Source of the DNA: a virus
Length of the DNA stretch: 64,000 bases
Virus record (IMG/VR): IMGVR_UViG_3300021170_000008
Coordinates: 1-64,000 of that record
Direction: 5' to 3' (one strand)
Of this stretch, positions 3,001-53,703 are shown one piece after another. A program made the position numbers and the translations under genes. Numbering within the stretch: the first letter of the stretch is position 1; the number at the start of each line of letters is the position of its first letter. The notes beneath the pieces were generated by a model. The model searched no databases, was not told where the DNA came from, and saw only the letters and a program-made list of their open reading frames with translations.

Positions 3001-3932
3001 GGTCCAGGAGTTACCGGGAAGACTAATGACTGGACGTTCGAGGCGCAGGTACCAGGAGTTGTCGGAGTGCTATCCAGAGTTAGGCAAACATGAGCAGTGC
3101 AGTCTGCCGTCATCGTGTTTGCCCCAGTGCAACTGGCCGTGTTGATGATGAAATTAAACCAGTTCGGATGCACTGGCGTCGATACCCACTGCTCGAAGAA
3201 TTGGCTAGATGAGATATTCAGATATTGAGCAGGTAAAGATATGAATAGCTTATCCTGAGTTGTTCCTGAGTAAGTGGTGGCTGTTCCGGTTGCATTCGCG
3301 CAACTCGTCCCGACGGTCCAGTTAGTCCCGGAGCAGGCCCCAAATGTACTTGCTAGTAACCGCTTCTCGTCGTTTGGCAGGGAAAAGTTACAGATTTTAG
3401 CTCCCGTAAATGGCTCTATTTCGCACGCCGTTCTGTCGGTCTCAGAGATGTTAGGGAACAACATGTGATGATCTGAAGCTGTGATCACCGGGTCCCGATA
3501 CGTCCTACCCCAGGACGGGTACCCAGTTGAAACTGAACCGGTTGCGATGTCCATGAGTGTAGCCCCGCAGCTTACGCGCCAATAGTGCGTCGTCACCATC
3601 TGAAGGCCACGAGAATAATACTTACCGTCAGATGCCTGTTGAACTGCCCTAGTGCCAGCTACAAAGACTCGATGCAAATTATTCAGCGGATCGGTAAAGG
3701 CACCAGTCCTGGTATCTAAGTTAGATCCAGAGAACAGCGATGAGTTTACGTCGTTAACCAAAGGTGAGTACGTATTAGATTCGCTAACTTCGTACTGGCA
3801 TGGGTCTGACGTTGTCGCGATGACATCAAATAGGATCTGTGCTGGCTGATCAGGATTGACCTTCGTAGTTACCGTAGGGGTAGCGGCTTTCGCAACAGCG
3901 CAAATAATAAATACAGTAGCTAGCGGTCTCAT
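93..3932 (-). CDS. Large Cys/Ser/Thr/Gly-rich putative secreted or virion-surface protein (1279 aa)
   Basis: Long ORF, N-terminal hydrophobic signal-like peptide MRPLATVFIICAVAKA, many Cys pairs; C-terminal FGYAEYG...YYCTQRRDPCV resembles large acidobacterial exported proteins (recall). Confidence 0.7.
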   Translation of the reverse strand: MRPLATVFIICAVAKAATPTVTTKVNPDQPAQILFDVIATTSDPCQYEVSESNTYSPLVNDVNSSLFSGSNLDTRTGAFTDPLNNLHRVFVAGTRAVQQASDGKYYSRGLQMVTTHYWRVSCGATLMDIATGSVSTGYPSWGRTYRDPVITASDHHMLFPNISETDRTACEIEPFTGAKICNFSLPNDEKRLLASTFGACSGTNWTVGTSCANATGTATTYSGTTQDKLFISLPAQYLNISSSQFFEQWVSTPVHPNWFNFIINTASCTGANTMTADCTAHVCLTLDSTPTTPGTCASNVQSLVFPVTPGPVNLCGDGGSSSCTINDLWGMPYTDTGYSLFGVGYLYTSGTSTTVNFTSTTDCNRTQPNETLQVNGGTVVVSAAAPVCSGTPHFVATSPINLDISSFTGPTGYPFQYYAGIWWNPRFGILIDKNSTTASNTFSIGSPNWADSRGGSLTNTSGGFHERCSQWLDGMGNYKCRWIEKIMFYNPTTGVSGYLGTTPGMASSGDQPSSGQECEAIGNGSTFWSDANTFVTGCIRASDSQFVIFTAQLTGNAANDVPLTPLATDQSVYPSSITWTDISGPIATKILAFDPTFDSTDYDNYTVMGYSSGRYVHGAAYRGGQDTLAYFWVYDMMSNTVVADWCSFCNPSGSRWSVIHGVEWVAPLQGANAVPLLAYQGKRGRDDTVNGPAYRITYAGNYCVAGCGGGSPTFMAGAMPPTCSPTCRIQITGIPTAMIAPTTLQNLAVGDVIEWGNCPGVPCENDQVLSIQSTNADITLTRGLDPNYPLQSWANGSTALLTPYWGVTTVDPIPSICFWDFLAQPNGPTSNANNYCRFDPGGGHSVSYDKVNFGSPSISGAYTPTGISNDKSQFPMGTTFAQAFDSPLFSGSCYSPQYPDLYEGHPSYKPTPWSIITDTHPNIGAAFNQNSATWVVGTLFKLTYNENPGGLLPSDGISYKCQPHLVESNFRSLNDMSSSATGNQIGGTTMDNYNYCIAYKVNECRTGSSVGDIYVNAPYLNPNYFNAGPPGPCDLSAADAYDLCFSDLAAQGLGTFVYPGPVSTSFTQQQNQFYPLLEQFAINAKGDPDTLNGKLLWGGWQVVFTANSSGPLYAGGRGGVYLVKVPQTQPPYDGLNRTQFSSHSVTISGVPGGTNNVIVRFGYAEYGTPTQYYCTQRRDPCVANSGTVNQSNPFQWPADGVGGVESGITGVSCASTCAIQIPIISGYVGYFLAVFRDGGNSTISTRLLAPSAGDVAPVAPVTSRAVTSSGTVFPGKVVH

Positions 3933-6062
3933 TTAGATGATCCGGAACCTTGTCCCGTCATACCCCAGAGGAACAATCATCCCAGCCGCACACTGCGCCG
4001 ATGTTGGGTCCGTAGATCCATCAGCTTGCTTAACGGATTTAGCCCCAAGACCGTCGATGTTCATTGTCGTGGCTGTTCCACCACTACAACTCATACCGAC
4101 TAACCAGTACACAACCAAACGTGTCGCGTAAGCTTGTAGTGGCCCATTCGCTAGAGTCGTAGTATAGACCGTCGCGCTCGAAGATGTCTCCGTAAGGCCC
4201 AAAGAGAAGTCATTAGCTGAGATCACATCTCCCGCTACAACTCGTGGGATCGCGTGACGATTGCTACTAGCGTTGGCGTAATATACAGCGGTATGTGAGG
4301 AACTGTCATACGTCATGACTCCCACTCCGGATGTCGATGATGTAATTGCGGTTCTTTCTGGCCCTAATATATACGTCGGAGAACACGTTGGGCAAGTTGC
4401 AGGACCACCTTGGTATGTTGTACCGTCCCAGTCAAACTGTTGTATCGTGACCATGTTCGCTCCGAGATCAGGTTGCGCTGGCCCGCTTACGGTTCCAGGC
4501 CATCCAGACACCAGGAAGTTACCGGTACCGTTCTGCGCGAAGGCGACCTTAAAGGACTGGTGCGATACAGAGTTGGTGATAGAAATTGATGTCACATTAG
4601 CCGTCAATATGTTTGAGAAGTACGATCCCTTACTTAAATCAATCGTAATTGAAGCAGCAGAAGCTATGACCGTAGGAGTATCCGAGAACCTTCCAGTAAT
4701 AGCGACATTCCCGGAAGATGATGGATTGGATTGAATATCGCTTCCGGAAAGAATAAATGGACATATAAAGAAACCGGGATCAGAGCTTACCCCCGATCCC
4801 TCAAAACAGAAATTGACAGCCGCTGGGGCGATAAGCGTTGGGGCGCTCGTTCCATTACCAACCATAATTGCGTGCGCCGTAATAGATCCCAAGCTCGTCC
4901 CGCCCTGGCTCACCGTTACCACCGCATTGTCGGTTAATATATTCGCGCTAGCGTTCGGCAAGGTGAATGTCTTAAGAGATGTTCCGGGTCCAGCGAACTG
5001 CATGAAGCCGTTGTTGGTTCCGCCGTTGGCCCCAGGTAGAATCGCCGTGACTTTAGATGTCAGATCGATAGTCGCGTTCGCGATGTCAGCATTGACAACC
5101 GATGTAAAGCTAGGCGGTCCAGCGCCGTTGCCGTGTAGTACCTGCGTCGTCGTACCAAGAGATCCAAGCACACTCGGGGCCGCGCCAGCACCACCGCCCA
5201 ACACGATTGCGTTTACCGAAAGAGCAGCACTCGTTGCCAGCGTTGTCCCGTTTGAGAAATAAGGGATTCCGCCAGACGTGCCGGTAACTCCAAGCGCAAG
5301 TGTTCCAGATCCAGTGATAGGGCCACCGGTGAACGCGAAGATCCCCGTAGCGGAAGCGTTCACGCTTGTTACTGATCCGCCACCAGCCGGTGTTTGACAC
5401 GACCCATCCCCACGTAAGAAACTTGATGAATTACAGGTCCCTGTCCATAGAGCTATGATTGTTGCCGATGTCGCTATACTAGGCACACCGGATGACATCT
5501 TAATAAGTCCGGTTAACGCGGCTATACTAGCCCCCATAAGTTGGTTGGCGTTAACTATTCCGGAACCGCTAAATGTCATACTGGCCCCAGTACCTAGCGT
5601 CATTACCGCTGAACCATTTGTACCACTAGTTATAGAGTTAAATGCAGGACTGCCGCCACCACCCGTACCTCCGTTAGTTGGTATGTAGATATTTTTTGTG
5701 CCAGTGTAGTTTATAGATACCGTACCAGTGATATTGAACCTCAGGTACGCATGATACCCTGATGCGGCTCCGATACAACTAGGTGCTGTATTCGCTACGG
5801 TTGCGTCTCCGTCCGCAAAGCTATTCCATGGTCCAGTTGTAGCAACGTCAGAGTATTGAATAGTTACTGACCAAGACCCAGTACCAGTTACACAGAAAGT
5901 ATGCACGTTGCTCGTTCTCTGCGTACTTCTATTATCAATAACAGTTGCTTGGCTTGTTATGTTGTTTATTGCAACGACTTGTACGGTGCCTGGAGGTTGC
6001 GCTACCGCCTGAGCTGCGAGTAGCCCGCAGAAACCAAAAATAAGTATTGATAAATACTTCAC
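3933..6062 (-). CDS. Tail-fibre/adhesin-like Gly/Thr/Ser-rich protein (709 aa)
   Basis: Fibre-type motifs FLRGDG, GGGSVTSV, ANGGT; signal-like N-terminus. Confidence 0.65.
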   Translation of the reverse strand: MKYLSILIFGFCGLLAAQAVAQPPGTVQVVAINNITSQATVIDNRSTQRTSNVHTFCVTGTGSWSVTIQYSDVATTGPWNSFADGDATVANTAPSCIGAASGYHAYLRFNITGTVSINYTGTKNIYIPTNGGTGGGGSPAFNSITSGTNGSAVMTLGTGASMTFSGSGIVNANQLMGASIAALTGLIKMSSGVPSIATSATIIALWTGTCNSSSFLRGDGSCQTPAGGGSVTSVNASATGIFAFTGGPITGSGTLALGVTGTSGGIPYFSNGTTLATSAALSVNAIVLGGGAGAAPSVLGSLGTTTQVLHGNGAGPPSFTSVVNADIANATIDLTSKVTAILPGANGGTNNGFMQFAGPGTSLKTFTLPNASANILTDNAVVTVSQGGTSLGSITAHAIMVGNGTSAPTLIAPAAVNFCFEGSGVSSDPGFFICPFILSGSDIQSNPSSSGNVAITGRFSDTPTVIASAASITIDLSKGSYFSNILTANVTSISITNSVSHQSFKVAFAQNGTGNFLVSGWPGTVSGPAQPDLGANMVTIQQFDWDGTTYQGGPATCPTCSPTYILGPERTAITSSTSGVGVMTYDSSSHTAVYYANASSNRHAIPRVVAGDVISANDFSLGLTETSSSATVYTTTLANGPLQAYATRLVVYWLVGMSCSGGTATTMNIDGLGAKSVKQADGSTDPTSAQCAAGMIVPLGYDGTRFRII

Positions 6063-6103: not shown

Positions 6104-6598
6104 TTAGAGGGATACGCTGGCGGCTTTATAGGTGCTGTCGAGGGCTGGGGATTTGTCAAGACACATCTGAAGTTCTACGGTGTGGATATGGTTCGCATAC
6201 TTGCTATCCACAAACCTGGAGTGCTCTTGCCAGGGAATTTCTTTATGTGTACCGTCGGACCAACTAGCCGTGGATTTATAGGTAGTATCCAGGGAGAAGA
6301 ACGCAACCTGACTATCCACGCGGTCTCCACGAACCATCAGCTTCTCTCGGCGCAGGTAGTCGATAATTGATCCTTGCACCCGAGTATAGGCGAATGTCCA
6401 GAATGTATTGTTGGATGTTTCTTGATGGCGAAGGCAGGTTTTCCAAAGAGCCATCATAACTTCTGACATGATGTCGTCTTTGAGATGCCGGACGGCTGGG
6501 TTAATATCTCGGCAGTATCTATTGACAAGAGCGGTGGCTCGCTTCTCGTGGTCCGCGAAAAGCTGCTCGCAAACACCTAGATCTACAGTTTCTTCCAA
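6104..6598 (-). CDS. Sigma-70 family protein, region 2 only (FliA/SigD-like)
   Basis: DIMSEVMMALWK...FWTFAYTRVQGSIIDYLRRE matches region 2; no recognisable region-4 HTH. Confidence 0.7.
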   Translation of the reverse strand: MEETVDLGVCEQLFADHEKRATALVNRYCRDINPAVRHLKDDIMSEVMMALWKTCLRHQETSNNTFWTFAYTRVQGSIIDYLRREKLMVRGDRVDSQVAFFSLDTTYKSTASWSDGTHKEIPWQEHSRFVDSKYANHIHTVELQMCLDKSPALDSTYKAASVSL

Positions 6599-6664
6599 AG
6601 TGGAAGTGTAGACCTATTTGTATTACGCTGTCAAGAAAGGACTTGTATTTCTAATCAATACGCA

Positions 6665-6871
6665 CTATCTTCTATGAGTCCATCCTGCGTAAGCAAGTTG
6701 CTCCCGCAGGTATGTTATAACCTCCGGAAGCCTCCGTACGGGGACTACTTTTATAAGATCCCCGACGCAGTCTCGCCGGTCCGTATGGACCCGGCCAAGG
6801 CCACAAAGCGGGCAGGCAACCTTAGCATCGTCGTAACTTAAAGCCTTCGTTACGGCCTGAATATCGGTCAT
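6665..6871 (-). CDS. Hypothetical protein (CxxC)
   Basis: ORF in tightly packed leftward operon; probable start MTDIQ at 6871. Confidence 0.5.
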   Translation of the reverse strand: MTDIQAVTKALSYDDAKVACPLCGLGRVHTDRRDCVGDLIKVVPVRRLPEVITYLREQLAYAGWTHRR

Positions 6872-13025: not shown

Positions 13026-13199
13026 ACTAGTCGCCACTGCGTTCATTCTCGCCGTTTGGATCGGCGTTATCTGTCGCGCATTGGGGGTGAATCTCATCCC
13101 CATCCAACCGTAGGTGTTCCATGATGAAACGGGGCCTTTGAAGCCCCGTATACCGGACATGGTCACCCGGTACTGACGATTCAGACCAGATAGGAACAT

Positions 13200-13523
13200 A
13201 TGACAAACGTATCTGATAACTTCGCCGTCCCAAGTGCCGTAACGGTACTCCGTCCAACAGTCTTAACTGCCGATTCACTTGCTAACCTGCTAGCCGGAGC
13301 GGCAGAAGCCCATCACATCTACGAAGCTAAGATCGGCATGGCCGATTCTTCGTGGGAATCGTGGTACGCAGCATGGATCATGGATCGCCTTCCAGTTCCC
13401 GTTGAAAGCTCCACACGTACTAGTCTCCGTTCACAGGAACCTGAAACCGGGTTTGACGACGAGCAAGGGACATACGGTCTGTCGGCTTATCCCAACATTC
13501 CCTCGGAAGATTCGGCGTACTAA
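13200..13523 (+). CDS. Hypothetical protein (AH..YE...D..W..WYA motif)
   Basis: SD TAGGA; ORF. Confidence 0.6.
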   Translation: MTNVSDNFAVPSAVTVLRPTVLTADSLANLLAGAAEAHHIYEAKIGMADSSWESWYAAWIMDRLPVPVESSTRTSLRSQEPETGFDDEQGTYGLSAYPNIPSEDSAY

Positions 13524-42725: not shown

Positions 42726-43496
42726 ATGGCCGACATCGCGATCCGCGACAACTCAGACGCCGTATTTCTATCTACAATACTCAGCCCGGAAGAGAAAGAG
42801 ATCATCCGCGAACTGCTCACAACTACGCGCCCGGCAAACGAGGTCATCCCGGATGATATTTCATCTTCCGACCTGTGGATGATGCTGGCGGCAACGTGTA
42901 AGGGCGTCAAGGGCGTAGAAGACGCTAAGAGCCGCCTGAAAATCTTCCTTGGAAGAATGTTGGTCCAGCTTCAAAAACACCCCGAACTGTATCAGGCCCA
43001 CGGCTATCCCAACTACAATTCCTTTATGACCGAGGGCGTCCAGGCGCTGTTCGGCGTCAGTCGCAACGAAGCGTTCGTCTGCAAGAAAATCATCGAAGAG
43101 CTTGGCGACCGTCTGACCATCGAAGAGATGTCCGACATGGGGATCAGCAACTTGAATCTGGTGGCCAATGCGATCCGGCAGAAGGTCCCAGACGGCGTCG
43201 CTTCGGACGTTCGGGAACGCGAGATAACGTACTGGGTCGATCACGGCAAGACCGATAATTACGCGACCCTCAAAGAGCGTCTAGTGATCCGTGGCATTAT
43301 CGATGAGGGCGAAATCGATATGCAGATGCTCAGTATAAATCTCCAGAAAAGTGTCCGGGATCGCTGGATGCGGTTCCGGAAACAAGACTGGGTCAAGGCT
43401 CACGCAGGCGAGACGGATTCGATGATCTTAGACGCGCTCATGTCTGAAGCAATGTGCTGGGAAGCGACTGTCGAACGGGAGCGGGAGCAGGCGTGA
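42726..43496 (+). CDS. Hypothetical protein
   Basis: SD GAGGT; promoter TTGACA-N18-CATACT upstream. Confidence 0.65.
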   Translation: MADIAIRDNSDAVFLSTILSPEEKEIIRELLTTTRPANEVIPDDISSSDLWMMLAATCKGVKGVEDAKSRLKIFLGRMLVQLQKHPELYQAHGYPNYNSFMTEGVQALFGVSRNEAFVCKKIIEELGDRLTIEEMSDMGISNLNLVANAIRQKVPDGVASDVREREITYWVDHGKTDNYATLKERLVIRGIIDEGEIDMQMLSINLQKSVRDRWMRFRKQDWVKAHAGETDSMILDALMSEAMCWEATVEREREQA

Positions 43497-44065
43497 AGAA
43501 GATCCCGACAATGTTCGAGCGTGACTGGGCTGGCGATAAAAGCCGGGTCATAAACAAGATCCATCCAGGCTGTGAATGGGTCGCTAGCGGTGAAGGCGTT
43601 GCCACGCGCAAGATCGACGGCACTAGCTGTATGGTGCGTGACGGCAGGCTTTATAAGCGCAAAGAGCTACGGGCCGGTGAGCCGCAGCCTGCGGACTTTG
43701 AACTTTCCGACAAAGACGAAGAGATCGGAAAAACGATAGGCTGGCTGCCGGTAGGCAACGGCCCGGAGGATAAGTGGCACCGTGAAGCATTCGCGGCAGT
43801 AGCATTGCCGGACGGTACGTACGAACTTGTCGGCCCTAAGATCCAGGGGAACCCGGAGGGGTTTACGTATCACTGCTTAGTGCCGCATGACGAGACCGGA
43901 GAGCTACCGGATGTCCCGCTAACCTTTGATGAACTTAAGGAATTTCTGGACGGTCAGGATATCGAAGGTATCGTTTTCCATCACCCAGACGGCAGGATGG
44001 CTAAGATCAAGTTGAAGGATTTTGGCTTGAAACGCATGAGGCCGATGGATGCGCTCAGCGCGTAG
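43493..44065 (+). CDS. ATP-dependent RNA ligase-like nucleotidyltransferase
   Basis: RKIDGTS (KxDG), YELVG, EGIVF, MAKIK; GTGA-coupled start. Confidence 0.8.
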   Translation: MKKIPTMFERDWAGDKSRVINKIHPGCEWVASGEGVATRKIDGTSCMVRDGRLYKRKELRAGEPQPADFELSDKDEEIGKTIGWLPVGNGPEDKWHREAFAAVALPDGTYELVGPKIQGNPEGFTYHCLVPHDETGELPDVPLTFDELKEFLDGQDIEGIVFHHPDGRMAKIKLKDFGLKRMRPMDALSA

Positions 44066-49032: not shown

Positions 49033-49658
49033 AGCTAACGCCGACCATCTCTTTATTGATCAAACAGACGATAGACACCTGCGCGAAGTCAATCTACCAG
49101 GAACAAGAAGGCGGAATCCATAGTGAGTTAGTACCGGCTGTCTGGAATTGGATTAAAGAGCGCGTTTCGATCCAGGTTGGTCAGCGAGTGCTAGATATAG
49201 GACCCGGCAACGGACTTGCTATAAATCTATTCCTTAAGGACGGCCTTGAGCCAATAGCTCTCTGCGGGAGCGAAGCTGAATGCGCCGCGATCAACACTTC
49301 AGGTACCGGCGCTGTCGCTCTCTGGGCCGACATGCACGAGATCTCGATGTTCAGTAACTTCTTTTCGGGCATCTTTGCTCGACACGCCCTGGAACATAGT
49401 TTCGCACCGTTAACTATGCTACTCGGGATGAAGTTCGCACTTAAGCCCGCTGGCTGGATTTACGTAGAGGTCCCTGCGCCGGGCACGGCCTGTAAGCATG
49501 ACTCTGACAATCCGAACCATTTCAGCGTCCTAAGCAGGCCGATGTGGCGCAAGCTGATCGCCGACGCAGGCTTCAAGATCATCGACGAAGCGTCTATCAC
49601 CTTCACCGTCCAGGCTGGCGACGACGAGTATTATAGTTTTCTCGCAGTTCACGCTTGA
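49029..49658 (+). CDS. Class I SAM-dependent methyltransferase
   Basis: VLDIGPGNG, ADMH, RHALEH, LKP.GW.YVEVP. Confidence 0.85.
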   Translation: MKLTPTISLLIKQTIDTCAKSIYQEQEGGIHSELVPAVWNWIKERVSIQVGQRVLDIGPGNGLAINLFLKDGLEPIALCGSEAECAAINTSGTGAVALWADMHEISMFSNFFSGIFARHALEHSFAPLTMLLGMKFALKPAGWIYVEVPAPGTACKHDSDNPNHFSVLSRPMWRKLIADAGFKIIDEASITFTVQAGDDEYYSFLAVHA

Positions 49659-49707
49659 CAGCCCTTTCAAGCTCCGCCCCGAAGGCGACTATTTACTAAA
49701 ATAGCGC

Positions 49708-49736
49708 TTGACACGAAGTACGGCAAGATGTATGCT
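49708..49736 (+). promoter_or_regulatory. Sigma70-type promoter TTGACA-N17-TATGCT driving the Y RNA/Ro locus
   Basis: Predicted TSS coincides with 5' end of first Y-like RNA (~49743). Confidence 0.8.
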
Positions 49737-49742
49737 GGTTAA

Positions 49743-49865
49743 GTTCGGGTCGGCAGGTTAGCCTTATCTGGTTACCTTGGTTCGACTCCAAGACCCACGC
49801 AAGTGGGTTCTAGTAGCTCTGTTAAGGGGTTGCTAGTCGATGGCTGGCCACCCACTTATCCGGAC
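49743..49865 (+). ncRNA. Y RNA, YrlA-like (tRNA-like payload) #1
   Basis: Terminal stem GTTCGGGT/ATCCGGAC, upper stem GGTTAGCC/GGCTGGCC, T-arm CTTGG-TTCGACT-CCAAG, closed acceptor ACCCAC-GCAA-GTGGGT, D-like arm. Confidence 0.8.
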
Positions 49866-49881
49866 ACCTTTTAAGTTCTCA

Positions 49882-50015
49882 GATTCGGGTCGATAGATTA
49901 GGGTTATCTTTTATCAAAAGAGAGGTCGCTGGTTCGAGTCCAGCCGTGTCTCGCGAGGGGCGCGTAGCTCAGTTGGTAGGGCGCTAAAACGCCCTGGTTA
50001 ACACTTATCCGAGTC
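49882..50015 (+). ncRNA. yrlA: Y RNA, YrlA-like (tRNA-like payload) #2
   Basis: GATTCGGGT/ATCCGAGTC terminal stem; T-arm GCTGG-TTCGAGT-CCAGC, acceptor CGTGTCTC-GCGA-GGGGCGCG, D-arm TAGCTCAGTTGGTAGGGC in permuted order. Confidence 0.9.
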
Positions 50016-50059
50016 GATACTGCGTAGTTTGACGGTGGTTGATGTGACTTGCCCGGAAA

Positions 50060-50122
50060 CGGGCCGTGGAGCCACGGTTACCTTACTTGGGGCCACGGGT
50101 CTGTCGATCCATCTGCGTCCCG
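50060..50122 (+). ncRNA. Degenerate Y-like element in Ro 5' leader (#3)
   Basis: CGGGCCG...GGTTACCT...CGTCCCG; imperfect upper stem. Confidence 0.45.
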
Positions 50123-50141
50123 AAATAGGAGAAAAAATCAC

Positions 50142-51767
50142 ATGGCAAAGAACTATCTGGCTGGCGTTTTGAACCCGTTGTCAGTTCCACAGTCCGAGCC
50201 GCTTCCCGGCAAAGAGATGGTCGCCAATAACGCAGGCGGCTACGTGTTCTCTATCTCCACAATGAAGCAGGTAGAGCGCTTCCTGATCTTGGGATCTGAG
50301 GGCGGTTCGTATTACGTCACCGAGCGCAAAATGACGTTAGGCAACGTCAACGCCTTGAAGGCTGCGCTTGCCGCAGATGGACCTGCCGTTGTCCGGCTGA
50401 TCGTCGATATCAGCACTAAGGGACGTGCCCCCAAGAATGACTCCGCGCTGTTTGCTCTGGCATTGGCTGCGAGCCCGAAGTTTGCCGACGCTCGCACCAA
50501 CTCAATGGCGCTTGCCGCTCTGCCGCAGGTTGCACGTACTGGCACGCACTTGTTCCAGTTCGTAAACTTCGTCGAAGGCAACAAGCTCCGTGGTTGGGGC
50601 CGTGGTCTGCGTGCGGCTGTGGCTGACTGGTACCTGTCGAAGACGCCGGACAAGTTGGCGTATCAGGCTGTGAAGTACCAGAACCGCGAGCAGTGGTCGC
50701 ACCGCGATCTGCTTCGGCTGGTCCACGCGAATAATCCGGCGCTCCAGAATGTTTTCCACTGGATCGTGAAGGGTGAGATCGAAGGTCCGGTACCGGCGTT
50801 TATTGAGGCATTCGAAAAGGCCAAGGTCTCAACTGATCCGAAAGAGATCATCAGCCTGATCGAGAGCGCCAACCTGACTCGGGAAATGATCCCGACGCAA
50901 TTCCTGAACGATGTCGCTGTTTGGGACGCATTACTCCAGAAGATGCCGCTGACGGCTATGGTCCGTAACCTGGGTAAGATGACGCAGGTCGGTTTGATCA
51001 AGCCGTTGTCGGACGCATCTGCGCTTGTTAGCGGACGGCTCCGGAACCAGGAATGGCTGAACCGGGCGCGGGTCCACCCGATTGCTCTGCTGATGGCGGC
51101 TTCGACGTACGAGTCTGGCCGTGGTCTGCGTGGCAGTTTGACTTGGGAGGCCGTGAAGCCGGTTGTCGATGCGCTGGATGAAGCCTTCTATCTGGCCTTT
51201 GATAACATCGTTCCAACTGGCAAGCGGTTCTACCTTGGAATCGATGTCAGCGGATCGATGGGCATGGGAAGAGTGGCCGGTACGGCGCTTACCCCACGCG
51301 CAGGCGCGGCAGCGATGGCAATGGTGACGGCTCGCCGAGAGTCCAACTATTACATGGCAGGGTTCCAGGACAAGATGGTCCCGCTCGATATCGGGGCTCG
51401 TGACCGTCTGCCGGATGTTATCCGCAAGACCGATAATCTGCCGTTTGGAGCCACGGATTGCGCTCAGCCGATGATCGATGCGTTGAAGAAGAAGCTCGAA
51501 GCCGATGTCTTCATCGTGTACACCGACAACGAGACCTGGGCCGGTCCAAAGCACCCGACAGCAGCACTTCAGGAGTACCGGGAGAAGATGGGGATCAATT
51601 CGAAGTTGATCGTCTGTGGTTTGACGGCTACCGGCTTCTCTATCGCAGATCCGTCTGATCCTGGGATGCTTGATGTGGTTGGATTCGATACTTCTGTTCC
51701 TCAGGTAATCTCGTCGTTTGTCGGTGGAGGCGAGATGCCGGAGGAACAGGAAGTCGAAGCAGAGTAA
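50142..51767 (+). CDS. rsr: Ro60/TROVE-vWA RNA-binding protein
   Basis: NNAGG, RFLILGSEGGSYY, KY.NR..WSHRDLLRL.H, MP.TAM.RNLG.MT, DVSGSM, TDNETW; SD AGGAG before MAKN. Confidence 0.95.
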   Translation: MAKNYLAGVLNPLSVPQSEPLPGKEMVANNAGGYVFSISTMKQVERFLILGSEGGSYYVTERKMTLGNVNALKAALAADGPAVVRLIVDISTKGRAPKNDSALFALALAASPKFADARTNSMALAALPQVARTGTHLFQFVNFVEGNKLRGWGRGLRAAVADWYLSKTPDKLAYQAVKYQNREQWSHRDLLRLVHANNPALQNVFHWIVKGEIEGPVPAFIEAFEKAKVSTDPKEIISLIESANLTREMIPTQFLNDVAVWDALLQKMPLTAMVRNLGKMTQVGLIKPLSDASALVSGRLRNQEWLNRARVHPIALLMAASTYESGRGLRGSLTWEAVKPVVDALDEAFYLAFDNIVPTGKRFYLGIDVSGSMGMGRVAGTALTPRAGAAAMAMVTARRESNYYMAGFQDKMVPLDIGARDRLPDVIRKTDNLPFGATDCAQPMIDALKKKLEADVFIVYTDNETWAGPKHPTAALQEYREKMGINSKLIVCGLTATGFSIADPSDPGMLDVVGFDTSVPQVISSFVGGGEMPEEQEVEAE

Positions 51768-51771
51768 TTCA

Positions 51772-51840
51772 AATCGGCGAGCCGATAGGGGATCGTTACC
51801 TATTGCAAAAAAGCGGTCCTCGGCAACTTGTTCGCCGGTT
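51772..51840 (+). ncRNA. Minimal Y-like RNA #4
   Basis: AATCGGCGAG/TTCGCCGGTT, GGGGATCG/CGGTCCTC, TTACCT, A-rich loop, ACTTGTTC. Confidence 0.75.
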
Positions 51841-51845
51841 AATTT

Positions 51846-51991
51846 TTCTACGAGCCGGAGTGGATTCGTTATCTTACTCCAAGCCGAAAGGCAAACAATC
51901 GCTGTCGTTAAACAGCCATGCCGGGTAACTCTGGTATGCTTCACGTCAGAAATGATGTGTTGAAATGGATTCACGACACTTGTTCGTAGAG
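51846..51991 (+). ncRNA. Y-like RNA #5 with four-hairpin payload
   Basis: TTCTACGAGC/GTTCGTAGAG, GTGGATTCG/TGGATTCAC, TTATCT, four internal hairpins, CACTTGTTC. Confidence 0.75.
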
Positions 51992-51998
51992 TAATCTG

Positions 51999-52068
51999 GC
52001 TTCGGGCCGAAGTGGGATGGTTATCTTTCTGAAAAAAAATATGCCATCCCGCACATACTTGTCCGAGC
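51999..52068 (+). ncRNA. Minimal Y-like RNA #6
   Basis: GCTTCGGGC/GTCCGAGC, GTGGGATGGT/GCCATCCCGC, TTATCT, A8 loop, ACTTGTCC. Confidence 0.78.
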
Positions 52069-52093
52069 AAATCACTCCTGCTTCAGTTTCCGC

Positions 52094-52123
52094 TTGACAA
52101 TAAGTATCCATCAATGCTAAACT
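52094..52123 (+). promoter_or_regulatory. Promoter TTGACA-N18-TAAACT with extended -10 TG
   Basis: Upstream of AAA ATPase. Confidence 0.55.
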
Positions 52124-52170
52124 TGAAGCTGTCCACAATTTCCAAGATAGAAGGTTGGTACCTATACCAC

Positions 52171-53703
52171 ATGGCAATAACCAGAAAAACGAAAGAGACG
52201 CTCGTGGACGATCTCGGCCAAGACTTTGAACTCCAGTTCAAGGAAGTGGGCCTGGACCGTCACGCGAAAGGAAAGATCGCCCTGCCAGAGAATATGACTC
52301 TGTCGGAGGGGATTTACTGGCTCAAACAGAAGCAGGCAGACGAAGAAACCATGGTCGTCGTCAACGAAAAAATTGACGGCTATCCGGTCGATGTCGCCTA
52401 TTGCCTTCAGTTGGCCGTCCAGGATATGTTCGGCTTCCGGGAACTGAAGACCATCCCGCCGGAGCACTTCTTCGACAAAGAGAAGCCGCCGACATTCATG
52501 ACCGTCCCGACCGACCACAAAGGCGGAACGGTTGAAGTATTCCTGGGTAGGTTCTCGGTGCCGGGCGCAGATGGATATCTTCAGACTGGCCGCATTAACA
52601 ACGACGCTCTGATCATCCAAGGAAAGCTACGTCAGAAGAACATCCCGATCCTCCGGGCGCTGATCGCCAAGACCAAGGAAACGCTGGCCAAGCAATCGCT
52701 CTACAAGGGCAAGTCGTTCCGCGTGAAGTTCAATGAAACGCTGGACGGCAAAATTATCGACAATCCGGAATTCATCGACGTAAGCAAGGCACCAGCCCGG
52801 CTGACGTTGAATGCCGAGACGGCGGAACTGGTCCGGGCGGCTCTGTGGACCCCGATTGAGCGCAGCAAGCAAACCAAGCATTTTGGGATGCCGCTCAAGC
52901 GTGGTGTTCTACTTTACGGCCACTACGGCACCGGCAAATCCCTGACGGCGCATGAGACGGCTCATCTGTGCTCGCAGCACGGCTGGACGTTCATCTATGT
53001 TAAGGATGTCACCGACCTGCGCGAGATGTATTCGTTCGCGGCGCGGTATTCGCCTGCGGTGCTCTTCGCTGAAGACATCGATCTGGTGATCAAGCATGAA
53101 GGCGACGACGGATCTGACTCCGTTAATGAACTGAACAACGTGCTCGACGGCGTGGACAGCAAAGACAAAGACATCATTGTGGTCTTGACCACAAATCATG
53201 TGGAAAAGATCCCGGTGTCTCTGCTCCGTCCTGGCCGGTTCGACGCCATCGTCGAGTACTTCCCGCCTGACCGGGCGACGGCTGCGGCGTTGGTTGAGCA
53301 GTACGCAGGCGATGAAATCGACCGGGACGACTGGGATTGCGAAGAAGTCGGAAATGTCCTGGCCGGTAACATCCCGGCGACGATCCATGAAGTCGTCAAG
53401 CGAGCCAAGCTGTTTTCGATTGGCCGCTACCCGGCAGACTACCGGGGCAAGCTCCTGCTATCGACATCGGACATCATCAATTCGATGAAGAGTATGAGCA
53501 AGCACCTGGATCTTCTGAACACGAAGCCGTCCGAGAACCCGTCGTTCACCGAAGTCCTGGGTGGAGCAGTCGGCGAGAGTATCGCAAAGAATCTCGCCGT
53601 AGCTCTAGACGTTACAAAGCGTGGCGATAACTGGGGTGAAAAGCGCTCCAAAATAGCGGAGGAACGTATCCTGGCTCCGCTCGAAAACGGCAGCAGCAAG
53701 TAG
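52171..53703 (+). CDS. Classical-clade AAA ATPase with N-terminal extension
   Basis: RGVLLYGHYGTGKS, LFAEDID, LTTN, LLRPGRFD. Confidence 0.9.
   Translation: MAITRKTKETLVDDLGQDFELQFKEVGLDRHAKGKIALPENMTLSEGIYWLKQKQADEETMVVVNEKIDGYPVDVAYCLQLAVQDMFGFRELKTIPPEHFFDKEKPPTFMTVPTDHKGGTVEVFLGRFSVPGADGYLQTGRINNDALIIQGKLRQKNIPILRALIAKTKETLAKQSLYKGKSFRVKFNETLDGKIIDNPEFIDVSKAPARLTLNAETAELVRAALWTPIERSKQTKHFGMPLKRGVLLYGHYGTGKSLTAHETAHLCSQHGWTFIYVKDVTDLREMYSFAARYSPAVLFAEDIDLVIKHEGDDGSDSVNELNNVLDGVDSKDKDIIVVLTTNHVEKIPVSLLRPGRFDAIVEYFPPDRATAAALVEQYAGDEIDRDDWDCEEVGNVLAGNIPATIHEVVKRAKLFSIGRYPADYRGKLLLSTSDIINSMKSMSKHLDLLNTKPSENPSFTEVLGGAVGESIAKNLAVALDVTKRGDNWGEKRSKIAEERILAPLENGSSK

What the first reader, a model, noticed from the sequence alone, without database searches (positions are those of the whole stretch)
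49743..52068. Phage Ro60 gene embedded in an array of six Y-like RNAs with one shared scaffold and different payloads
Seen: six elements (49743-49865, 49882-50015, 50060-50122, 51772-51840, 51846-51991, 51999-52068) share one architecture. Each has a terminal stem containing 5' GRGYCG, a second stem, then TTAYCT at the loop entry. All but #3 also carry 3' ACTTRTYC. Stem sequences differ between copies but pairing is kept, which implies structural selection. Established: Ro60 binds a bulged helix formed by Y RNA ends and uses the other end of the RNA as a tether for effectors (e.g. PNPase in Deinococcus); YrlA RNAs have a tRNA-like domain; a few phages encode Ro plus YrlA. From recall, the order GGxCCGA...GUUAUC...CACUUG also matches vertebrate Y1/Y4 and the nematode sbRNA UUAUC motif. 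Inference: one phage Ro protein is programmed by several interchangeable RNAs (tRNA mimics, a multi-hairpin, A-rich loops) into distinct RNPs, possibly decoys for or repair adaptors against host anti-phage ribonucleases.
Basis: partly seen in the sequence, partly recalled or inferred. Interest (0 to 1): 0.92.

Follow-up and report, generated by a model that had tools for sequence, protein, structure and literature searches.

The report
Phage Ro60 operon with five Y RNAs
A soil phage carries the gene for the ring-shaped RNA-binding protein Ro60 in one unit with five small Y RNAs that share the protein's docking stem but carry different outer domains; this is a richer example of a known protein-RNA partnership, and similar arrays sit beside Ro60 genes in many uncultured phages.

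Summary
The window is the first 64 kb of a 106-kb soil phage record. The ORF at 50142-51767 is a full-length Ro60.

Five of the six claimed RNAs are real Y RNAs. Each has a terminal stem with a bulged C, a fixed 11-nt spacing to UUAYCU, a second stem of 8-9 bp that differs in every copy, and a 3' ACUU strand.
- A strict descriptor finds only these five in 64 kb.
- A covariance model that never saw Y1, Y2 or Y5 recovers Y5 and Y2 clearly and Y1 weakly.
- The same model finds 116 matches beside Ro60 genes in 80 metagenome loci, all on the gene's strand, 94% paired with heavy compensatory change.
- Arrays of 2-6 are common there.

Payloads:
- Y1 and Y2 are YrlA-type tRNA mimics.
- Y5 carries four hairpins.
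- Y4 and Y6 are short hairpins with A-rich loops.

Element #3 is not a Y RNA as drawn. It holds only the docking helix, closed by a GAAA loop, with its partner strand upstream, in the rsr leader.

The kind is known (YrlA/YrlB, Thermus phage phiLo). The size, payload mix and flanking layout of the array are new detail. This scan has noted phage Ro60 RNA arrays before on other DNA. Function is inferred, not shown.

The parts
49708..49736 (+). Sigma-70-type promoter-like site (TTGACA, 17 nt, TATGCT). The predicted start lies about 7 nt downstream, at the first base of Y1.
   Evidence: 10 of 12 matches. The extended -35 word CGCTTGACA recurs exactly 7 times in the window. Consensus match only.
49743..49865 (+). 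Y1: a Y RNA with a docking scaffold and a tRNA-like payload (T arm, a 6-bp hairpin capped by GCAA, and a long D-arm-like hairpin).
   Evidence: Descriptor hit with stem 1 of 8 bp and stem 2 of 8 bp. Fold z -4.15. R2 13.3 bits with correct ends, but E 0.51 over the whole window. T-loop motif found.
49882..50015 (+). Y2: a YrlA-type Y RNA (T arm, closed acceptor-like hairpin with a GCGA cap, D arm).
   Evidence: Rfam YrlA matches model positions 24-84 at 33.5 bits, E 7e-5, below the gathering score of 69. R2 21.4 bits. Descriptor 9 + 8 bp.
50035..50083 (+). Capped (circularly permuted) Ro60-docking helix in the rsr leader. Order of parts: 3'-type strand with ACUU, a 5-bp stem, a GAAA loop, the 5'-type strand with the bulged C, 11 nt, UUACCU.
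   Evidence: The second stem is only 6 bp, and 18% of shuffles do as well. Neither R2 (8.6 bits) nor R3 (8.5 bits) recognises it. Status uncertain.
50142..51767 (+). rsr, the Ro60 orthologue (541 aa).
   Evidence: Pfam TROVE 8.8e-49 and vWA_Ro60 1.3e-66. phrog_850. PDB 9nen 3.6e-129, 1yvp and 2nvo.
51772..51840 (+). Y4: a short hairpin Y RNA with an A-rich apical loop.
   Evidence: R1 (built from Y6 alone) 22 bits. R2 48.7 bits (Y4 is in the R2 seed). Fold z -3.8. Descriptor 11 + 8 bp.
51846..51991 (+). Y5: a Y RNA whose payload is four consecutive hairpins, with no T loop.
   Evidence: R2 33.8 bits, E 4e-6 over the whole window (not in the seed). Fold z -5.14. Descriptor 10 + 9 bp.
51998..52069 (+). 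Y6: a short hairpin Y RNA with an A-rich loop. It is the copy closest to the family consensus.
   Evidence: Rfam nematode sbRNA family 27.6 bits (E 0.0075) and Deinococcus Y RNA 22.9 bits, both below gathering. It is the seed of R1, which found homologues beside other rsr genes.
52094..52123 (+). The next promoter-like site, marking the downstream edge of the unit, ahead of an AAA ATPase gene (52114-53703).
   Evidence: No terminator-like site was predicted between Y6 and this site.

Best explanation
The stretch 49708-52069 is one phage transcription unit: promoter, Y1, Y2, a leader with a capped docking helix, the Ro60 gene, then Y4, Y5 and Y6.

The five Y RNAs are cut out of the precursor by host RNases. 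Phage Ro60 binds and stabilises them through the shared bulged helix (stem 1, bulged C, G-R opposite UU) and the adjoining second stem with UUAYC.

Each RNA then presents a different outer domain:
- two tRNA mimics of the YrlA type;
- one four-hairpin domain;
- two A-rich loops of the YrlB/Yrn2 type.

One Ro60 ring can therefore be gated or tethered to different partners. The precedent is PNPase in Deinococcus, Salmonella and Thermus phage phiLo.

Shown here: the gene, the RNA scaffolds, their conservation and covariation, and their exclusive linkage to rsr. Inferred: co-transcription, processing, Ro60 binding and partner-specific function.
For: - Ro60 identity.
- Five scaffolds with identical geometry and different, fully paired stems.
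- A model built from Y6 alone finds homologues next to rsr in other phages.
- A5 alignment: 93% of cells paired, 63 cells with double changes, against about 40% paired when the partners are slid.
- R2 finds 116 matches at E <= 0.01 in 80 metagenome rsr loci, all on the rsr strand. These are 94.3% paired, with 485 double-change cells, against 37-44% paired when slid.
- In the viral loci there are 2-6 scaffolds per locus with filters off and none on the minus strand.
- Nothing else in the phage's 106 kb matches.
- Gene neighbours of rsr are not conserved across 97 loci, so the RNAs are its only constant companions.
- A promoter-like site ends 7 nt before Y1, and no terminator is predicted inside the unit.
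- Contigs of a soil metatranscriptome from another study match 100% over Y1-Y2, the 3' two-thirds of rsr and Y4-Y6. This is a weak hint only.
- Literature: Y RNAs are encoded near rsr on the same strand, are processed from polycistronic precursors, and number at least two per species, one tRNA-like and one long hairpin (PMC4201824). Phage phiLo Ro60 binds two upstream Yrl RNAs and forms a complex with host PNPase (PMC12135203).
Against: - There is no direct evidence of discrete transcripts, of Ro60 binding or of any partner.
- Y1 scores weakly (13.3 bits; E 0.51 over the window).
- No Rfam Y family reaches its gathering score on any copy.
- The alignments used for the pair counts were fitted to the model's structure, which leans towards it.
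- The closest relatives share only 41-56% Ro60 identity, so no copy-by-copy orthologues exist to show that each of the five is individually conserved.
- The RNA library may contain DNA.
Confidence: 0.8

Rival explanations
1. Redundant ligands. All five RNAs do the same single job: they stabilise or gate Ro60, or simply raise Y RNA dosage. The payload differences would be drift after tandem duplication, not a set of different adaptors.
For: Stem 1 sequences fall into look-alike pairs (Y1/Y2 and Y4/Y5), which suggests local duplication. Copy number varies from 1 to 6 between related loci, so no fixed set is required.
Against: The same payload classes (short hairpin, T arm only, T plus D arm, multi-hairpin) recur in unrelated loci. 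Payload helices in Y1, Y2 and Y5 are intact, with GNRA caps. Bacteria keep one tRNA-like and one hairpin Y RNA each (PMC4201824).
Confidence: 0.25
2. Counter-defence reading. The tRNA-like Y RNAs act as decoys for host tRNA-cleaving nucleases, or bring Ro60 to damaged tRNA or rRNA for repair or clearance during infection.
For: The phage invests in tRNA supply, with 27 tRNA genes, and has an RNA-ligase-like ORF at 43454-44065 (phrog_14301 at 1.2e-61; Pfam RLIG1 at 33.9 bits). Ro60 genes sit in RNA-repair operons in Salmonella (PMC7790460), and phage TROVE proteins are discussed with RNA repair (PMC7824862).
Against: No RtcB and no Rnl2-type ligase is present in the genome. The ligase-like ORF is 6 kb away and is not linked to rsr in the other loci. 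None of the five window RNAs has an anticodon-loop mimic. There are no functional data.
Confidence: 0.15
3. The capped docking helix in the leader (50035-50083) is a working Ro60 site in cis. It would feed back on rsr translation or load Ro60 on the precursor, rather than being a decayed relic of a tRNA-shaped Y RNA.
For: Both strands of the docking helix are present with the bulged C, a GAAA cap and the 11-nt spacing to UUACCU. The element ends 58 nt before the start codon. Capped modules are a real recurring form in relatives, where 7 of 15 four-nt caps are GNRA. Ro60 mainly reads the 5' strand (PMC4201824).
Against: R2 and R3 score it at noise level. Its second stem is 6 bp, and 18% of shuffles do as well. 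The leader fold is not better than shuffles (z -0.85). In relatives the capped module is the anticodon arm of a full cloverleaf and lies at varied places, including downstream of rsr, not specifically in the leader. The window copy has no recognisable D arm, T arm or acceptor stem.
Confidence: 0.3
4. The elements are not Y RNAs at all, but terminators, attenuators or a genome-wide repeat family.
For: They are GC-rich hairpins in intergenic DNA, and no Rfam family reaches its threshold.
Against: No U tracts follow them and no terminator is predicted there. They occur only around rsr in 106 kb. The conserved single-stranded motifs and the bulged C match the Ro60-binding helix, and homologues track rsr across about 90 loci on its strand.
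Confidence: 0.02

Closest known systems
YrlA (Y RNA-like A; Rfam RF02553) of Salmonella, Mycobacterium smegmatis and mycobacteriophages (PMC4201824; bioRxiv 10.1101/312249)
   Same: It is encoded beside rsr on the same strand. The RNA ends form the Ro60-binding stem. The payload is a permuted tRNA: T arm, closed acceptor-like hairpin, then D arm. Y2 aligns to model positions 24-84. Y1 has the T arm and the capped hairpin.
   Different: Y2 scores 33.5 bits against a gathering score of 69, and Y1 gets no match. There are two such RNAs in tandem here. The exact published 5' motif G-N-C-G-A-A-(N)-G is met only by Y6; the others have G-N-C-G-R.
YrlB / Yrn2 class: long hairpin Y RNAs with a small loop (PMC4201824)
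   Same: Y4 and Y6 are 67-72-nt hairpins made of the docking scaffold plus a small apical loop. They are co-encoded with a tRNA-like Y RNA.
   Different: The loops here are A-rich rather than pyrimidine-rich. No sequence homology was tested because no Rfam family exists for this class.
Thermus phage phiLo Ro60 with Yrl1 and Yrl2 (PMC12135203)
   Same: A phage-encoded Ro60 with Y-like RNAs in the adjacent non-coding DNA. In that system Ro60 binding and a ternary complex with host PNPase were shown in vitro.
   Different: phiLo has two RNAs, both upstream. Here there are five with three payload classes on both sides of the gene, plus a capped helix in the leader. Nothing has been tested biochemically here.
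Deinococcus radiodurans Yrn1 / RYPER (Rfam RF01053; PMC4201824)
   Same: The docking strand and the spacing to a UUAC-type motif are the same in the Rfam consensus aligned to Y6. It is processed from a polycistronic precursor. It is the functional model for tethering Ro60 to PNPase.
   Different: 22.9 bits against a gathering score of 80, with a different payload.
Metazoan Y RNAs and nematode stem-bulge RNAs (Rfam RF00019, RF01656; PMC4726728)
   Same: A lower stem with a bulged C, an upper stem, and a UUAUC motif at the loop entry. Y6 matches the sbRNA family RF01656 end to end at 27.6 bits (E 0.0075). A relative reaches 37.1 bits against a gathering score of 38. UUAYC is nearly invariant in 103 distinct phage-side scaffolds.
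   Different: There is no match to the vertebrate Y_RNA model. [quoted passage not shown] The near-invariance of UUAYC is partly an ascertainment effect of the model.

Membership tests
Ro60 / TROVE protein family | TROVE (HEAT-repeat ring) domain followed by a vWA domain, full length | tested here: met
   Pfam PF05731 at 8.8e-49 and PF25045 at 1.3e-66. Residues 14-526 align to human RO60 (9nen) at 3.6e-129, and also to 1yvp and 2nvo.
Y RNA (functional class: Ro60-bound ncRNA) | Encoded close to the Ro60 gene on the same strand (the criterion used in PMC4201824) | tested here: met
   All five lie within 400 nt of rsr on the + strand. The same holds for 116 of 116 homologues.
Y RNA (functional class: Ro60-bound ncRNA) | 5' and 3' ends pair into a helix with a bulged C and a conserved G-N-C-G-A-type 5' strand | tested here: met
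   The bulged position is C in 94 of 103 sequences and the following G is present in 102 of 103. The exact published motif with A-A is met only by Y6; the other four have G-N-C-G-R.
Y RNA (functional class: Ro60-bound ncRNA) | Physical binding to Ro60, and dependence on Ro60 for stability | not testable with these tools
   Needs RIP, EMSA or deletion experiments.
YrlA, Rfam RF02553 | Score at or above the gathering threshold (69 bits) | tested here: not met
   Y2 scores 33.5 bits, a partial match to positions 24-84. Y1 has no match at E <= 10.
YrlA, Rfam RF02553 | tRNA-like module in the order T arm, closed acceptor-like stem-loop, D arm, set between the two strands of the docking stem | tested here: met
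   Y2: the Rfam alignment shows all three parts. Y1: T arm and capped hairpin are clear, but the D arm is replaced by an 11-bp hairpin, so Y1 meets this only in part.
Vertebrate Y_RNA, Rfam RF00019 | Any match to the family model | tested here: not met
   No match at E <= 10 in the region or in the whole 106-kb genome.
Nematode sbRNA (RF01656) and Deinococcus Y RNA (RF01053) | Score at or above the gathering threshold (38 and 80 bits) | tested here: not met
   Y6 scores 27.6 bits (E 0.0075) and 22.9 bits (E 0.49). This is a resemblance, not membership.
tRNA | Recognised as a tRNA gene | tested here: not met
   ARAGORN finds none in the window. The Rfam tRNA model gives 20.3 bits on 49881-49952, below its threshold of 29.

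The most novel reading that the evidence does not exclude
Phage Ro60 loci encode a modular RNA toolkit in which one docking module is joined to payloads in three topologies:
- ends in the docking stem (classical Y and YrlA);
- a tRNA-order cloverleaf with free acceptor ends, in which the capped docking module replaces the anticodon arm (seen in relatives);
- a bare capped docking hairpin embedded in the rsr mRNA leader (this window), which would let Ro60 sense its own level.

The near-invariant UUAYC at a fixed distance from the bulged C, shared with nematode sbRNAs and animal Y RNAs, would then be an ancient Ro60-linked feature rather than a eukaryotic replication motif.
Probability: 0.2. Interest if true: 0.8.

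Novelty: new variant of a known kind. Interest (0 to 1): 0.55.

Why it matters
What Ro60 and Y RNAs do in bacteria and phages is still largely open. Published work describes at most two Y RNAs in any bacterium or phage.

This compact operon puts five scaffold-sharing RNAs with three payload types next to one Ro60. That gives a natural experiment: the same protein, the same docking stem and different outer domains. Pull-downs per RNA could show whether payloads choose partners.

The family-level data (about 160 scaffolds beside about 90 Ro60 genes) give a covariation-backed model that Rfam lacks. They show that multi-RNA arrays are the rule in this phage group. They also tie the UUAUC motif of animal Y and sbRNAs to phage Y RNAs.

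Tried and rejected
- Rfam at gathering thresholds finds no Y family in the window. The vertebrate Y_RNA model gives nothing even at E 10.
- ARAGORN finds no tRNA in the window.
- MAFFT alignments of the copies misplace the 3' strands or the stem registers. I therefore seeded a model from Y6 alone and iterated.
- No relative closer than 56% Ro60 identity turned up in viral or metagenome contigs, or above about 74% nucleotide identity in GenBank phages. Orthologue-by-orthologue covariation of each copy was therefore impossible.
- R3 is a model of the capped module built without the window copy. It did not recover #3. Many of its weaker hits are junctions between tandem Y RNAs, such as Y4/Y5 at 21.2 bits, and so are not evidence.
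- The 6-bp pairing between the leader module's internal loop and the start-codon region appears in the minimum-energy fold. The fold is not better than shuffles (z -0.85), so I give it no weight.
- Y1's 5' half can also pair with the 3'-type strand at 50037-50057 (7 + 7 bp). I treat this as a by-product of similar stems.
- In the metatranscriptome run there is no cover on 49300-49760, on 50077-50827 or beyond 52170. Absence of cover proves nothing.
- RtcB and Rnl2-type ligase are absent from the genome.
- The neighbouring methyltransferase, glycosyltransferase and AAA ATPase genes are not linked to rsr elsewhere, except the ATPase in L006/L069.
- An anticodon-loop mimic closing on UUAUC occurs in only 8 of 106 relatives and in none of the window's RNAs.
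- The 2020 Annual Review on bacterial Ro60 could not be read. A published mention of larger arrays cannot be excluded.
Full report
WHAT THE WINDOW IS. The window is bases 1-64000 of a 106,134-bp IMG/VR virus record that CheckV rates as complete. The record comes from a soil metagenome. It encodes RecT-like, DnaB-like and RusA proteins. No GenBank phage is close: only the Ro60 gene itself matches, at 69-74% nucleotide identity.

THE PROTEIN. The ORF at 50142-51767 (541 aa; the ATG lies 31 codons into the listed frame) carries Pfam TROVE and the Ro60 vWA domain. It aligns over its full length to human RO60, Xenopus Ro60 and Deinococcus Rsr structures, at E 1e-120 to 1e-129. It is a Ro60 orthologue.

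THE OBSERVATION. Five elements share one precise geometry:
- a terminal stem of 7-11 bp;
- a bulged C, followed by G-R, which can pair with the UU of the 3' ACUU;
- exactly 11 nt from the CG that follows the bulged C to UUAYCU;
- a second stem of 8-9 bp that ends at UUAYC;
- a 5-6-nt 3' internal loop ending in AC.

The five are Y1 49743-49865, Y2 49882-50015, Y4 51772-51840, Y5 51846-51991 and Y6 51998-52069. The second stem has a different sequence in every copy and is fully paired in each.

A strict descriptor of this geometry finds exactly these five on both strands of the 64 kb. Their folds are 2.3 to 5.1 standard deviations better than shuffles.

INDEPENDENT TEST WITH RELATIVES. The Ro60 protein retrieved 17 viral and 80 metagenome loci with 41-56% identical Ro60.
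- Model R1, built from Y6 alone, found full-length matches next to rsr in ten of the viral loci, and also found Y4.
- The 12 best matches are 93% paired with 63 double-change cells, against about 40% paired when partners are slid by 1-3 columns.
- Model R2, built from those 12 (Y4, Y6 and ten foreign sequences), finds 2-6 scaffolds per viral locus with filters off. None is on the minus strand in 93 kb.
- R2 finds 116 matches at E <= 0.01 in the 80 metagenome loci, every one on the rsr strand. These sequences were not in any seed. They are 94.3% paired with 485 double-change cells, against 37-44% when slid.
- The alignments are fitted to the model, so the numbers lean towards the structure. The margin is large all the same.
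- R2 never saw Y1, Y2 or Y5. It recovers them with correct ends at 13.3, 21.4 and 33.8 bits.
- Over the whole window Y2 and Y5 remain significant, and Y1 does not on score alone.
- Nothing else in the 106-kb genome matches.
That test is passed.

ARRAYS ARE THE RULE. With default filters, which miss long payloads, 60 of the 80 metagenome loci have hits: 23 have one, 23 have two, 11 have three, 1 has four and 2 have five. Many of these contigs are truncated. With filters off, the viral locus L004 has six in tandem upstream of rsr. Five copies is therefore at the top of the range but not unique. Gene neighbours of rsr are not conserved across the 97 loci. The gene and its RNAs travel as a cassette.

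PAYLOADS.
- Y2 aligns to the tRNA-like core of Rfam YrlA, with T arm, closed acceptor-like hairpin and D arm, at 33.5 bits. This is below the gathering score of 69.
- Y1 has a T arm with a proper T loop, a 6-bp hairpin with a GCAA cap, and an 11-bp hairpin where the D arm would be.
- Y5 carries four hairpins and no T loop.
- Y4 and Y6 are 67-72-nt hairpins with A-rich loops. They resemble the long-hairpin class (YrlB, Yrn2) that accompanies the tRNA-like Y RNA in all three bacteria studied (PMC4201824).
- The same payload classes recur in the relatives.

ELEMENT #3. As drawn (50060-50122), it is not supported. Its fold has z -1.4, R2 gives 8.6 bits, which is noise level, and there is no downstream ACUU strand that pairs with it.

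- What is real is its 5' half, with the same 11-nt spacing to UUACCU.
- Immediately upstream lies the complementary 3'-type strand (ACUU plus 5 nt), joined to the 5' half by a GAAA loop.
- The docking helix is thus present in circularly permuted, capped form at 50035-50083. It ends 58 nt before the start codon.

In relatives the capped form is genuine.
- It recurs with second stems of 7-9 bp, and 7 of 15 four-nt caps are GNRA.
- Model R3 finds about 25 copies in at least 15 loci.
- There it occupies the anticodon-arm position of complete cloverleaf RNAs with a 7-bp acceptor stem, D arm and T arm.
- Three of these RNAs score 43-45 bits with the Rfam tRNA model, whose gathering score is 29.

The window copy has none of that tRNA body. 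Its second stem is 6 bp, and 18% of shuffles do as well. R3, built without it, does not recover it (8.5 bits). It is either a working cis site for Ro60 or a relic, and I cannot tell which.

TRANSCRIPTION.
- A promoter-like site (10 of 12 matches) ends at 49736, 7 nt before the first base of Y1.
- The next such site is at 52094-52123, after Y6.
- No terminator is predicted in between.
- The spacers between the Y RNAs are 5-16 nt. This fits the polycistronic precursors described for M. smegmatis and D. radiodurans (PMC4201824).
- A soil metatranscriptome, from a different study than the probable source metagenome, holds 100%-identical contigs over 49761-50076, 50828-51784, 51789-52012 and 52020-52170.
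- Contigs show neither ends nor strand, and DNA carry-over is possible. This is a hint of expression, no more.

CONTEXT. Outside the window the phage has 27 tRNA genes. An RNA-ligase-like ORF sits at 43454-44065. There is no RtcB and no Rnl2-type ligase.

MECHANISM.
- Best supported: phage Ro60 binds each RNA through the shared helix, and the payloads gate Ro60 or tether it to different partners. This follows the Rsr-Y RNA-PNPase machine and phiLo Ro60-Yrl-PNPase (PMC4201824, PMC12135203).
- The linkage and the structures are shown here. Binding and partners are inferred.
- Redundancy of the copies, and a decoy or repair role against host RNases, remain open rivals.

COMPARISON AND NOVELTY.
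- Phage Ro60 with Y RNAs is known. YrlA-related sequences were reported in 22 phages (PMC4201824). Two Yrl RNAs were described in phiLo (PMC12135203). Possible Y RNAs were discussed for a Listeria phage (PMC12282133).
- I found no paper describing arrays of five or six, a four-hairpin payload, a capped docking module, or tRNA-order Y RNAs. The main 2020 review was not readable here.
- The UUAUC motif is known from sbRNAs and vertebrate Y RNAs (PMC4726728). Here UUAYC is nearly invariant in 103 distinct scaffolds, partly because the model selects for it. Y6 matches the sbRNA family RF01656 at 27.6 bits.
- Earlier notes of this scan report Ro60-linked RNA arrays in other phages. Within the scan this is a recurring theme.

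VERDICT. This is a real and well-formed locus, a new variant of a known system, and of moderate interest.

Noticed in passing
L002:3546-3665 and 3737-3856; L021:2119-2240; L092:4485-4612 and 4640-4760; L045:1518-1640 and 1659-1784; L008:6341-6460 and 6547-6670: Beside rsr in related loci there are tRNA-order cloverleaf RNAs. They have a 7-bp acceptor stem, a D arm and a T arm, and one has an encoded ACCA end. Their anticodon arm is replaced by a tetraloop-capped Ro60-docking module followed by UUAYC. Three of them score 43-45 bits with the Rfam tRNA model despite an insert of about 50 nt. They look like the un-permuted counterpart of YrlA. I found no description of them in the papers I could search.
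   Followed up: partly
window 13122-13190 (+): A type II hammerhead ribozyme match above Rfam's gathering score (40.5 bits against 37, full model length). It ends 10 nt before the ORF at 13200-13523.
   Followed up: no
genome 88656-96542 (-), outside the window: A block of 27 tRNA genes covering most amino acids (ARAGORN).
   Followed up: no
window 43454-44065 (+): An ORF matching phage RNA ligase family phrog_14301 over its full length (1.2e-61), and Pfam RLIG1 in part (33.9 bits). It lies 6 kb upstream of the Ro60 unit and is not linked to rsr in other loci.
   Followed up: partly
window 49652, 49705, 52091, 44789, 59243 (+); 9869, 11198 (-): The 9-mer CGCTTGACA occurs exactly seven times. 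By my own estimate about 0.5 would be expected by chance. Two copies precede the Y1 promoter region and one precedes the AAA ATPase gene. It is probably an extended -35 element of this phage's promoters.
   Followed up: no
L077:2030-2098, L051:1941-2008, L052:286-355, L069:2309-2370, L073:2284-2345, L071:1442-1508, L002:3665-3733, L003:3883-3951: In 8 of 106 related scaffolds UUAUC pairs with a downstream GAUA to close a 7-nt loop. The loop has C32, U33 and A38-like positions and eight different middle triplets, so it looks like an anticodon loop. Other loop lengths give 0-2 such cases. None of the window's RNAs has this.
   Followed up: partly
window 49744-49769 with 50037-50057: The 5' half of Y1 can also pair with the 3'-type strand of the leader module (7 + 7 bp). 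That alternative fold would enclose Y1's payload and all of Y2. It probably follows from the similar stem sequences.
   Followed up: no
L006:1979-3280 and L069:479-1780: The AAA ATPase that follows the Y array here (52114-53703, phrog_10440) also has a 36%-identical homologue beside rsr in one other phage lineage. L006 and L069 are the same contig from two collections (same length), so this is one further instance rather than two. It is absent from the other loci.
   Followed up: partly
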